The position numbers were made by a program, and so were the translations under genes. Below the pieces are notes generated by a model. It ran no database searches and was not told the origin of the DNA. It worked only from the letters and a program-made list of their open reading frames with translations. From the NCBI GenBank assembly GCA_963422265.1, contig OY729416.1:512001-576000 (forward strand): a DNA stretch of 64,000 bases, written 5' to 3'. This document shows positions 57,713 to 58,492 of the stretch, in pieces. The DNA is from Thermodesulfobacteriota bacterium (GTDB taxonomy: Bacteria > Desulfobacterota_D > UBA1144 > Nemesobacterales > UBA2774). Position 1 is the first letter of the stretch. Every line of letters starts with the position of its first letter.

Positions 57713-57744
57713 TTATTGACATCATTACGTAATGATGTTAATAA
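57713..57744 (+). promoter_or_regulatory. 32-bp palindromic operator overlapping a sigma70-type promoter
   Basis: ttattgacatcattac|gtaatgatgttaataa has one mismatch and a perfect 20-bp core at 57719-57738. It contains TTGACA (57716-57721) and, 17 nt later, TAATAA preceded by TGn. Confidence 0.75.
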
Positions 57745-57751
57745 TAGGTAT

Positions 57752-57973
57752 GTGACTGCTGAAACAATAAAACAGAGGGCAAACCCAAACAAGATGCACA
57801 GGGGTTCGCTTTATATACCGACTTTGCTTTATGAGAAGCTAAGGCTCCATTCATTTGTATCCAGAAAAAGTCAGTCAAAAATCATTGAGGAGGCAATTTC
57901 AGAATACCTTGATAGAGCTATGGCGAGCGAAGAACTCAACAATGTAACGATTATGCACCGAAAAGGTGATTAA
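57752..57973 (+). CDS. Ribbon-helix-helix (CopG/Arc-like) DNA-binding protein
   Basis: RGSLYIPTLLYEKLRLHSFVSRKSQSKIIEEAISEYL fits the RHH pattern. Start is probably GTG 57752 or ATG 57794. Confidence 0.75.
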   Translation: MTAETIKQRANPNKMHRGSLYIPTLLYEKLRLHSFVSRKSQSKIIEEAISEYLDRAMASEELNNVTIMHRKGD

Positions 57974-58012
57974 AAAATTCCTTGACGAATAATTTAATTG
58001 GGAGAATAGTCA

Positions 58013-58492
58013 ATGACGGTAAAAGATATAATTAAACTTTTAGTTGAGAACAAGGGATGGTACCTGGTAAGACTTCGCGGGAGCCATCGTCAGTTTAAGC
58101 TAAGAAATCATAAAAAAAGAGTTACGATAAACTGTAAAATGGAAAAGGTGATACATGAGAGTACTGTTGATCACATACTTAAACATTGCTTTGACACAGA
58201 TAGTATCGTTGTAAAGAATAATTATAAAATTACGATAGAAAAGTCTCCAAATTGCTACTCCATCCGCTGCGACGATCTACCAGGATGCGTTGCCGTAGGT
58301 GATACGATTAAAGAAACGAAAGAGCTTATGATGGATTCTGTCCGTCTTCATTTAGAAGGATTGAAGCAGGACGGGATTATATGTCCTGACCCTTCCGAAG
58401 CTTCGGCGCTCTTCAAGCTGGAAGAAGAGGATACCGTTACGACAAAAGACCTTTCTCCAGAATGGCTACTATGTGAAAACCAAGTGTTTTAG
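58013..58492 (+). CDS. Single-chain HicA toxin - HicB antitoxin fusion
   Basis: aa 1-59 are HicA-like (IIKLL..KGWYLVRLRGSHRQFK...RVTI...TVDHILK). aa ~70-128 are HicB-like (YKITIEK...YSIRCDDLPGCVAVGDTIKE...SVRLHLEGLKQDG..CPDP). One uninterrupted frame. Confidence 0.85.
   Translation: MTVKDIIKLLVENKGWYLVRLRGSHRQFKLRNHKKRVTINCKMEKVIHESTVDHILKHCFDTDSIVVKNNYKITIEKSPNCYSIRCDDLPGCVAVGDTIKETKELMMDSVRLHLEGLKQDGIICPDPSEASALFKLEEEDTVTTKDLSPEWLLCENQVF

What the first reader, a model, noticed from the sequence alone, without database searches (positions are those of the whole stretch)
57713..58492. Rewired HicAB module: fused HicA-HicB single chain with a separate upstream RHH regulator
Seen: one 159-aa ORF holds a HicA-like domain with the catalytic GSH His intact, a ~10-aa linker (FDTDSIVVKN), and a HicB-like toxin-binding domain with no C-terminal DNA-binding domain. 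There is no stop, in-frame start codon or SD at the junction. An RHH gene lies 39 nt upstream, behind a palindromic promoter. Established: HicA is an RNase toxin, and HicB is normally a separate, labile protein that often carries its own HTH or RHH. Inference: the parts are re-partitioned as RHH | HicA-HicB, giving a self-inhibited toxin that cannot be controlled by toxin:antitoxin ratio and would need a trigger. This is reminiscent of the fused anti-phage TA CapRel; possible triggers are a phage protein, proteolysis of the linker or acidic tail, or redox change at its several Cys.
Basis: partly seen in the sequence, partly recalled or inferred. Interest (0 to 1): 0.85.

Follow-up and report, generated by a model that had tools for sequence, protein, structure and literature searches.

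The report
Fused HicA-HicB toxin-antitoxin with own repressor
A small RNA-cutting toxin and its antidote are joined into one protein and sit behind a separate repressor gene with a perfectly conserved DNA switch, an arrangement kept across one family of uncultured bacteria; it is a new variant of a known kind of system.

Summary
ORF 58013-58492 (159 aa) scores above Pfam's cut-offs for HicA_toxin (aa 4-58) and HicB_lk_antitox (aa 71-135) in one open frame. It has no DNA-binding domain. A 73-aa ribbon-helix-helix (RHH) gene ends 39 nt upstream; by homology it starts at GTG 57752, not TTG 57716.

It is not a one-off or an assembly error.
- 21 of 32 other genomes of the same family carry the open fused frame.
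- The same 21 carry the RHH gene next to it, and 0 of 87 genomes of the class's other families do.
- An 18-bp palindrome between the -35 and -10 boxes is letter-identical in all 18 fused loci read and in the window.
- Contigs from two other studies span the locus without indels.

The nearest split relatives are compact hicA-hicB pairs without a DNA-binding domain or RHH. The RHH therefore looks added, not carved from HicB.

Best reading: an RHH-autorepressed operon encoding a cis-neutralised HicA RNase. How it is released is unknown. Fused HicAB proteins and the CapRel analogy are already in print (Gerdes 2024), but this architecture is not among the 14 classes in that paper's text. Verdict: new variant of a known kind, moderate interest.

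The parts
57713..57744 (.). Operator: 16+16 nt inverted repeat with a perfect 20-bp palindrome core at 57719-57738 (ACATCATTAC|GTAATGATGT)
   Evidence: inverted repeat I1. The 18-mer at 57720-57737 occurs once in the window against 0.03 expected. It is letter-identical in L001-L017 and L026, and its columns are invariant in alignment A3.
57716..57745 (+). Sigma-70-like promoter: -35 TTGACA 57716-57721, 18-nt spacer filled by the palindrome, -10 AATAAT 57740-57745
   Evidence: 11 of 12 matches, the best + strand site in the region. TTGACA is present in 13 of 14 aligned sequences; the second L026 copy reads TTTACA (A3).
57752..57973 (+). RHH (CopG-type) repressor gene, 73 aa, GTG start 6 nt after the -10 box (leaderless or nearly so, inferred)
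   Evidence: Pfam RHH_1. 73-aa (71-aa in L012) homologues with a conserved N-terminus MTAxTIQQRANP. Model: strand about 15-23, helices 24-37 and 41-56, extra helix 59-71. Foldseek top hits are RHH proteins with weak E-values.
57974..58012 (+). 39-nt spacer with a Shine-Dalgarno-like GGGAG at 58000-58004
   Evidence: A purine-rich GAGAGGATGG motif lies before the ATG in relatives (A4).
58013..58192 (+). HicA toxin domain, aa 1-60 (alpha-beta-beta-beta-alpha), with the putative catalytic His25 at 58085-58087
   Evidence: Pfam. Model. Foldseek 6g26_E and 6g26_F, target-normalised TM-score (TMt) 0.78-0.81, rmsd 1.5. His alignment. H25 nearly invariant in A1.
58193..58222 (+). Linker, aa 61-70, equal to the former HicA C-tail plus HicB N-tail; no stop and no in-frame start
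   Evidence: Alignment with split HicA and HicB proteins (A6).
58223..58420 (+). HicB antitoxin domain, aa 71-136 (partial RNase H fold: beta-beta-beta-alpha, plus a low-confidence last strand)
   Evidence: Pfam. Model. Foldseek 6g1c_V, rmsd 1.4 over 50 columns, also 6hpb_B and 1wv8.
58421..58492 (+). C-terminal tail, aa 137-159, plus stop. It is unique to this genome's lineage; relatives end about 19 aa earlier in QAS
   Evidence: A1. pLDDT below 50. The tail frame is also open in the X6 strain variant (my codon reading).
58513..58527 (+). Weak terminator-like hairpin after the operon
   Evidence: 5 pairs; consensus match only.

Best explanation
This is a two-gene operon. The first gene encodes a small RHH dimer. 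I infer that it binds the 20-bp palindrome that fills the spacer of its own promoter and so represses the operon. The second gene encodes a single chain in which a HicA RNase domain with its catalytic His intact is tethered by about 10 residues to a DBD-less HicB domain. I infer that the HicB domain holds the RNase inactive, in cis or between two chains. The fused gene arose from a compact hicA-hicB pair by loss of the stop between the genes. The RHH gene was recruited to supply the transcriptional control that such pairs lack. Toxin and antitoxin are made 1:1 and cannot be separated by differential synthesis. Any activation must therefore act on the protein, through a binding partner or proteolysis of the HicB part. 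Shown: the domains, the conservation of the fusion, the strict linkage to the RHH gene, and the invariant operator in the promoter. Inferred: repression, RNase activity, cis inhibition, and the existence and nature of a trigger.
For: Both Pfam domains lie in one frame above their cut-offs. The fold is alpha-beta-beta-beta-alpha plus beta-beta-beta-alpha. pTM is 0.69 although 33 of 159 residues are disordered, which suggests a defined packing of the two domains. Foldseek matches HicA 6g26_E/F and the HicB N-domain 6g1c_V. His25 aligns with the catalytic position of B. pseudomallei HicA and is nearly invariant (A1). 22 database relatives of 140-143 aa carry both domains. 17 loci in genome contigs carry the fused gene. 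The open fused frame is in 21 of 32 other genomes of the family, in 6 of its 6 other genera. The RHH motif lies about 204-220 nt upstream in 17 of 17 of those loci. The RHH is found in 22 of 120 genomes of the class, exactly those with the fusion and adjacent to it. RHH mean column identity is 83%. The 18-bp palindrome is identical in 18 of 18 fused loci while flanking DNA varies, and it sits between a conserved TTGACA and a TATAAA-like box. Third codon positions vary while the residues are kept (A5). Identity to relatives is 56-62% (45% in G079), like the housekeeping PepA next door at 58-70%. The split forms in sister families are compact hicA-hicB pairs with one stop where the linker now is. 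Contigs of two other studies span the locus with 1 and 18 substitutions and no indel.
Against: Nothing here is experimental: no RNase activity, toxicity, DNA binding or trigger is shown. I could not read inter-domain contacts from the model, so occlusion of His25 by the HicB domain is not shown. The window's copy is the most divergent full-length member of the 140-aa group; only the 137-aa G079 form is further (45%). It differs at several positions that are at least 90% conserved. Against the X6 strain variant it shows 7 non-synonymous and 3 synonymous codon changes, including Q119 to W at a nearly invariant position (my reading). That may mean relaxed constraint in this genus. 11 of 32 other genomes of the family gave no fused match; their completeness is 59-97%. 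The L026 relative has a shorter RHH of 45 aa without the C-terminal helix.
Confidence: 0.6

Rival explanations
1. CapRel-like anti-phage sensor. The HicB domain is both the cis antitoxin and the receptor for a phage protein, whose binding frees the HicA RNase and aborts infection.
For: The single-chain toxin-antitoxin architecture is present. The idea is proposed for fused HicAB proteins in Gerdes 2024. A GmrSD-type restriction gene lies 3.5 kb upstream.
Against: Neither protein hits PADLOC. The direct neighbours are housekeeping genes: APS kinase, a beta-lactamase-family hydrolase, PepA, DoxX. The module keeps a chromosomal place beside tRNA-Ser(GCT) in at least three genera and diverges like a housekeeping gene. 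That is unlike the patchy, mobile pattern of defence genes. No member of the fused family was found in phage, plasmid or viral-contig collections; only split hicA-hicB pairs below 60% identity were found.
Confidence: 0.2
2. True three-part system with physical coupling. The RHH protein binds the fused protein through its conserved C-terminal helix (aa 59-71). It acts as co-repressor partner or as the labile antitoxin, like RHH antitoxins of the ParD/RelB type.
For: RHH and fusion co-occur strictly. An extra conserved C-terminal segment (MTGxEFxNVxMY) follows the RHH core and is predicted as a helix of modest confidence.
Against: The L026 relative keeps the fusion and the operator but its RHH lacks that helix. 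The fused protein already carries its own antitoxin domain.
Confidence: 0.2
3. Domesticated RNase or RNA-binding protein. The fusion is no longer a poison-antidote pair but a lineage-specific RNA-processing or regulatory factor under RHH control.
For: Family-wide vertical-looking inheritance, kept synteny with tRNA-Ser(GCT), and housekeeping-like divergence. The genome also keeps a separate canonical compact hicAB pair.
Against: Both domains keep the residues typical of split HicA and HicB, including the GSH His. A tight autorepressed promoter is typical of toxin-antitoxin operons (established knowledge).
Confidence: 0.17
4. Dead or artefactual fusion: an assembly error or a decaying pseudogene made by a lost stop codon.
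For: About 13 other single-chain HicA-then-HicB cluster representatives in the 1.84-billion-protein library look like sporadic read-through of ordinary pairs, and some have degraded HicA parts.
Against: 21 of 32 other genomes of the family keep the open frame. Synonymous variation occurs over conserved residues. Contigs from other studies show no indel. The regulator and operator are conserved.
Confidence: 0.03

Closest known systems
Class 11 fused HicAB of Gerdes 2024 (mBio 15:e03293-23; passages and sections 6, 11 and 21 of the preprint read, passages of the mBio version read; Table S1 not seen)
   Same: One chain with HicA first and HicB second. A cis-antitoxin logic is proposed, and the CapRel analogy is drawn there.
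   Different: Class 11 is monocistronic and its HicB part ends in an HTH or RHH domain. Here the chain has no DNA-binding domain, and a separate RHH gene precedes it in a two-gene operon.
Class 1 compact hicAB (separate HicA of 60-85 aa and DBD-less HicB of 60-90 aa; Gerdes 2024)
   Same: Closest sequence relatives: 38-41% identity over both parts in sister families. Same gene order, same small HicB without a DNA-binding domain. One such pair is in this same genome.
   Different: Those are two proteins with a stop between them and no dedicated regulator gene. Here the stop is gone and an RHH gene with an operator has been added.
omega-epsilon-zeta three-component systems (recalled from general knowledge; no call)
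   Same: The transcriptional repressor is a separate small RHH protein encoded first in the operon, not a domain of the antitoxin.
   Different: The toxin family is unrelated (zeta kinase), and epsilon and zeta are separate proteins.
CapRel(SJ46) and EzeT fused toxin-antitoxins (as described in Gerdes 2024)
   Same: Toxin and neutralising domain lie in one polypeptide.
   Different: The toxin folds are unrelated. For CapRel(SJ46), activation by a phage capsid protein has been shown experimentally. Here no trigger is known, and the context is housekeeping.

Membership tests
HicA toxin (PF07927) | Sequence match above the curated cut-off | tested here: met
   41.5 bits against 27, aa 4-58
HicA toxin (PF07927) | [quoted passage not shown] | tested here: met
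   Model elements H3-13, E16-22, E25-30, E36-40, H49-57. Foldseek 6g26_E/F, target-normalised TM-score 0.78-0.81
HicA toxin (PF07927) | Catalytic His in the G-S-H motif | tested here: met
   His25 aligns with the mutated catalytic position of 4c26/6g26 HicA (the identity of that position as H24A is recalled). Nearly invariant in A1
HicA toxin (PF07927) | mRNA interferase activity and growth arrest | not testable with these tools
   Needs expression and RNase assays
HicB antitoxin (PF15919) | Sequence match above the curated cut-off | tested here: met
   35.3 bits against 27, aa 71-135
HicB antitoxin (PF15919) | Partial RNase H fold | tested here: met
   E73-78, E81-86, E92-96, H99-119. 6g1c_V rmsd 1.4 over 50 columns. 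The last strand has low confidence
HicB antitoxin (PF15919) | Binds and neutralises HicA | not testable with these tools
   Only indirect: pTM 0.69 suggests packed domains. Contacts could not be read
Canonical type II toxin-antitoxin pair | Toxin and antitoxin are separate proteins from two genes | tested here: not met
   One open frame here and in 21 related genomes
Gerdes Class 11 fused HicAB | C-terminal HTH or RHH domain on the fused chain | tested here: not met
   No Pfam domain after aa 135. Relatives end at aa 140. The tail is disordered
Gerdes Class 11 fused HicAB | Monocistronic operon | tested here: not met
   An RHH gene lies 39 nt upstream with the only conserved promoter in front of it
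Three-component system with a separate RHH regulator (omega-epsilon-zeta-like logic) | A separate RHH gene first in the operon, with an operator in the promoter | tested here: met
   DNA binding itself is not tested
CapRel-like fused defence toxin-antitoxin | Defence-island or prophage context, or a match to a defence model | tested here: not met
   PADLOC gives no hit. Neighbours are housekeeping genes. Absent from the phage, plasmid and viral collections searched
CapRel-like fused defence toxin-antitoxin | Activation by a phage protein | not testable with these tools
   Needs phage challenge in a culturable surrogate host

The most novel reading that the evidence does not exclude
A toxin-antitoxin pair has been welded into one chain, given its own RHH repressor with an invariant operator, and then inherited vertically for as long as a whole bacterial family has existed. 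That would make it a domesticated single-chain RNase switch. Its third component, the RHH with its conserved C-terminal helix, would read the state of the fused protein and couple it to transcription. Such a control logic has not been described for HicAB.
Probability: 0.2. Interest if true: 0.65.

Novelty: new variant of a known kind. Interest (0 to 1): 0.45.

Why it matters
Compact HicAB pairs lack a DNA-binding domain, and how they are regulated is an open question raised in Gerdes 2024. This family shows one natural answer: a separate RHH gene with a promoter-embedded operator that is letter-identical across genera. It also offers a clean, small (159 aa plus 73 aa) and evolutionarily stable example of a single-chain toxin-antitoxin. 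The 18 sequenced variants available would support experiments on how a 1:1 tethered antitoxin can ever release its toxin.

Tried and rejected
1. Complex prediction with two RHH copies plus the fused protein (collected) gave no answer: score 0.00, controls not run. It says nothing either way about binding.

2. Expression: no RNA holder was listed. Run X8, guessed to be RNA, gave only three short contig pieces. No statement on transcription can be made.

3. Internal start at the invariant Met43, which would give a separate HicB-containing product: no conserved Shine-Dalgarno-like sequence lies upstream in 14 aligned genes (A5). Rejected for lack of support.

4. RHH as a displaced HicB DNA-binding domain. 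The 'longer' search found no longer relatives among 8000 scored candidates, which is weak evidence. The PDB profile search gave only CopG-type hits at E 0.076-0.082. Not supported.

5. Rfam scan of 56000-60200 on both strands: no match at E up to 0.1.

6. NCBIfam: no family for the fused protein, and only a sub-threshold hit for the RHH.

7. The search of earlier findings: nothing by place or by words.

8. The Python box was lost. As a result there is no tree, no dN/dS calculation and no reading of model contacts. The codon effects of the X6 variants were worked out by hand.

9. A redox or zinc role for the Cys residues: Cys81 and Cys92 are at least 90% conserved, but Cys41, Cys59 and Cys86 are replaced in several members. 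No support.

Full report
**What is in the sequence**

The + strand ORF 58013-58492 encodes 159 aa. Pfam finds HicA_toxin at aa 4-58 (E 1.4e-10, 41.5 bits, cut-off 27). It finds HicB_lk_antitox at aa 71-135 (E 1.5e-8, 35.3 bits, cut-off 27), and nothing after that.

An AlphaFold2 model built on 26 aligned sequences has mean pLDDT 73.9 and pTM 0.69.
- aa 3-57 form alpha-beta-beta-beta-alpha.
- aa 73-119 form beta-beta-beta-alpha.
- aa 127-159 have pLDDT below 50.

Foldseek against the PDB matches the two halves separately.
- Burkholderia pseudomallei HicA, 6g26_E/F: target-normalised TM-score (TMt) 0.78-0.81, rmsd 1.5.
- HicB N-terminal domains: 6g1c_V rmsd 1.4 over 50 columns, also 6hpb_B and 1wv8.
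- Foldseek E-values are modest, about 0.025, with probabilities near 1.

In a profile search of PDB sequences, His25 aligns with the residue that is Ala in 4c26_A and 6g26_E. From recall, those chains are the H24A catalytic mutant.

Codons 55-72 hold no stop and no in-frame start.

**The upstream gene and its promoter**

The RHH ORF ends at 57973, 39 nt before the fused gene. Homologous 73-aa ORFs in L001, L005 and L011 begin MTAATIQQRANP, which matches the window from GTG 57752. An alignment of 19 such proteins has 83% mean column identity. The gene is therefore 57752-57973. The TTG at 57716 is part of the promoter.

Evidence that it is an RHH protein:
- Pfam RHH_1 passes its cut-off, 22.1 against 20.5 bits.
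- The model shows a short strand, two helices (24-37 and 41-56) and an extra C-terminal helix (59-71) of modest confidence.
- The best Foldseek hits are RHH proteins (StnY, CopA, Arc, CopG, ParD), all with weak E-values.

The promoter scan gives TTGACA (57716-57721), an 18-nt spacer and AATAAT (57740-57745), 11 of 12 matches. A 16+16 nt inverted repeat at 57713-57744 covers it. Its perfect core is 57719-57738. The GTG start lies 6 nt after the -10 box, so the mRNA is probably leaderless or nearly so. That point is an inference.

**It is a conserved family, not an accident**

The word-indexed protein search returned 26 proteins.
- 22 relatives of 140-143 aa carry both Pfam domains, as does the window's own protein.
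- Identity to the window protein is 54-66%.
- Source names point to Candidatus Dadabacteria or Thermodesulfobacteriota metagenome-assembled genomes.

The scan of one genome per species gave 18 loci. Seventeen are fused relatives (L001-L017; L017 is cut by its contig end). One is a HicB-only match (L018).

Across the 120 genomes of the class, 28 had a match at E up to 1e-10.
- The full open fused frame is in 21 genomes of the window's family plus the window's own genome.
- Family f1 scores 22 of 32, but one of those, G070, is a HicB-only match.
- All six other genera of the family are represented.
- The 11 other genomes of the family without a fused match are 59-97% complete.

**Strict linkage with the RHH gene and the operator**

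- A degenerate pattern for the RHH motif MHRGSLYIP hits 17 of 17 fused loci and the window's own locus, and none of the 3 non-fused loci held at that point. In the fused loci it lies about 204-220 nt before the fused start.
- A profile of the RHH finds it in 22 of 120 genomes. These are exactly the 21 with the fusion plus the window's genome, always adjacent. None of the 87 genomes in other families has it.
- The 18-mer CATCATTACGTAATGATG is letter-identical in L001-L017 and in L026, which has two copies, and in the window's own locus. It is absent from the 8 other loci held.
- In the alignment of 14 promoter regions these columns are invariant while the flanks vary. The -35 TTGACA and a TATAAA-like -10 box are kept.

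The proteins of the module are only 56-74% identical to the window's. Exact conservation of 18 bp at that divergence is strong evidence for a protein-binding operator.

**Independent check of the frame**

Logan contigs of two other studies span 57600-58600 in one piece. X5 has 1 substitution. X6 has 18 substitutions and no inserted or deleted letters.

I translated the 11 X6 differences inside the fused ORF by hand.
- Three codons are synonymous: R31, K68, L152.
- Seven are not: D5E, I6V, D87E, M107V, Q119W, S128A, C154Y.
- None makes a stop, and the tail frame stays open.

The high share of non-synonymous changes and the Q119W change hint at relaxed constraint in this genus, but the numbers are small.

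**Origin**

In sister families of the same order, the query matches at 38-41% identity over residues 1-130 with exactly one stop inside (G020, G006, G014, G011). Reading two of these shows HicA of 62-64 aa followed by HicB of 68-73 aa, with no DNA-binding domain and no RHH ORF upstream.

Aligning fused and split proteins shows that the linker equals the old HicA C-tail plus the old HicB N-tail (A6). So the fusion is a lost stop in a compact, DBD-less pair.

The RHH has no detectable kinship with HicB DNA-binding domains.
- The PDB profile search gives only CopG-type hits at E 0.076-0.082.
- The 'longer' search finds no longer relatives, which is weak evidence.

'Added regulator' therefore fits better than 're-partitioned HicB'.

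A more distant fused form (L026, genus g3, 45% identity, 137 aa) has a shortened RHH and a second operator copy in front of the fused gene.

**How widespread are such fusions?**

A full HMMER pass over 1.84 billion cluster representatives gave only 3 representatives of this family at E below 1e-30. About 13 further single-chain HicA-then-HicB representatives of 127-207 aa also appeared. I fetched 14 single-stretch representatives: P0027, which belongs to this family, and these 13. The 13 mostly look like read-through of ordinary pairs (for example ...LKQARLKSELKMKFVVV...), and some have degraded HicA parts.

Searches of 72,556 plasmid and 50,697 phage records found only matches below 60% identity, mostly annotated as separate hicA and hicB genes. 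Three viral contigs all carry split pairs.

**Context and inheritance**

Neighbours in the window:
- TrpRS/TyrRS-type synthetase
- GmrSD-type restriction enzyme (52570-54240)
- ankyrin-repeat protein
- APS kinase
- beta-lactamase-family hydrolase
- the module itself
- PepA aminopeptidase
- DoxX
- M20 peptidase
- CbiX
- an AMP-binding enzyme

PADLOC has no model matching either protein of the module.

In 9 of 10 related loci scanned, tRNA-Ser(GCT) lies 177-708 nt downstream of the fused gene. In the tenth it lies upstream. By matching coordinates, those loci come from genera g2, g4, g5 and g7.

The window has no tRNA gene. The genome's closest copy of that tRNA lies about 39 kb away, so the module has moved here.

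PepA of the window is 58-70% identical to its orthologues in all 32 other genomes of the family. The fused protein is 56-62% identical (45% in G079) and the RHH 65-74%. The module therefore diverges like a housekeeping gene, which fits long vertical descent under purifying selection. Synonymous third-position variation over conserved residues is visible in A5.

**Mechanism**

Shown:
- a conserved sigma-70-like promoter with an invariant palindrome;
- a conserved RHH gene;
- a conserved single chain with an intact HicA catalytic motif and a typical HicB domain.

Inferred from established knowledge of HicAB and of RHH repressors:
- RHH dimers bind the palindrome and repress the operon.
- The HicB domain neutralises the HicA domain.
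- Because the two are tethered 1:1, release must be post-translational.

The pTM of 0.69, with a fifth of the chain disordered, suggests that the two domains pack in a defined way. I could not read contacts, so cis against trans inhibition remains open.

**Comparison with print**

Gerdes (bioRxiv 2023, mBio 2024) lists 14 genetic contexts of HicA. I read passages and sections 6, 11 and 21 of the preprint and passages of the mBio version.
- Class 11 is a monocistronic HicA-HicB-DBD fusion.
- Classes 12 and 13 are HicB-HicA fusions.
- Class 1 is the compact split pair, and its regulation is flagged there as an open question.
- The CapRel and EzeT analogies for fused forms are made there.

A HicA-HicB fusion without a DNA-binding domain, preceded by a separate RHH gene, is not among the classes as described in the text. 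Table S1 could not be seen and may hold members.

Three full-text searches turned up no other description. The terms were HicA + HicB + fusion, HicA + tripartite + ribbon-helix-helix, and 'fused toxin-antitoxin' + HicA. Public annotations already name these proteins as HicA family toxin or as HicB/HicA-like.

**Verdict**

This is a new variant of a known kind: a family-wide, vertically inherited RHH-plus-single-chain-HicAB operon with an invariant operator. The trigger, the toxicity and any defence role remain untested.

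Noticed in passing
window 57740-57754: The RHH start codon (GTG here; ATG or GTG in relatives) lies only 6-9 nt after the -10 box in the 13 upstream-promoter sequences of the 14 aligned (the second L026 copy precedes the fused gene). This suggests a leaderless or near-leaderless mRNA.
   Followed up: partly
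L026:1259-1276 and L026:1503-1520: The most distant fused relative (45% identity) has two exact operator copies, one before the RHH gene and one before the fused gene. Its RHH is shortened to 45 aa, lacking both the N-terminal extension and the C-terminal helix.
   Followed up: partly
L001, L005, L009-L014, L016 (downstream of the fused gene); L008:3321-3414: tRNA-Ser(GCT) lies 177-708 nt downstream of the module in 9 of 10 loci, often followed by tRNA-Arg(ACG). In L008 it lies upstream. The window has no tRNA gene, and its closest copy of this tRNA is about 39 kb away.
   Followed up: partly
G000:C1:833906-834288 (L027:977-1398, minus strand): The same genome keeps an ordinary compact hicA (65 aa) and hicB (75 aa) pair without a DNA-binding domain. 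Its HicB is 44% identical to the HicB domain of the fusion, so cross-talk is conceivable.
   Followed up: partly
G000:C1:1716925-1717089 (L021): A third HicA_toxin match in the genome has a TAA inside the match. It may be a broken copy.
   Followed up: no
window 52570-54240: A GmrSD-type (type IV) restriction endonuclease gene with both N- and C-terminal domains lies 3.5 kb upstream of the module, separated from it by housekeeping genes.
   Followed up: no
window 54321-55703: A 460-aa ankyrin-repeat protein, which is unusual in a free-living bacterium.
   Followed up: no
L031:2731-2961: On a viral contig, a 76-aa ORF lies directly upstream of a split compact hicA-hicB pair. By eye it looks like an Xre/Cro-type HTH; this was not scanned. 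It may be another case of a separate regulator serving a DBD-less HicAB.
   Followed up: no
window 58367-58368: In the contig of run X6, the nearly invariant Gln119 codon CAG reads TGG (Trp). The C>T change alone would give a stop. This strain variant also carries 6 other non-synonymous and 3 synonymous codon changes in the fused gene (hand translation).
   Followed up: partly
L005 and L006 (G078:C9 and G078:C14): One genome holds two copies of the module with identical match statistics (62% identity, same E-value and bits), the second on a 6989-nt contig. This is either a duplication or assembly redundancy.
   Followed up: no
window 57982-58010: A weaker promoter-like site (TTGACG-17-AATAGT, 9 of 12) lies in the spacer between the RHH gene and the fused gene. 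It is not conserved in relatives.
   Followed up: no
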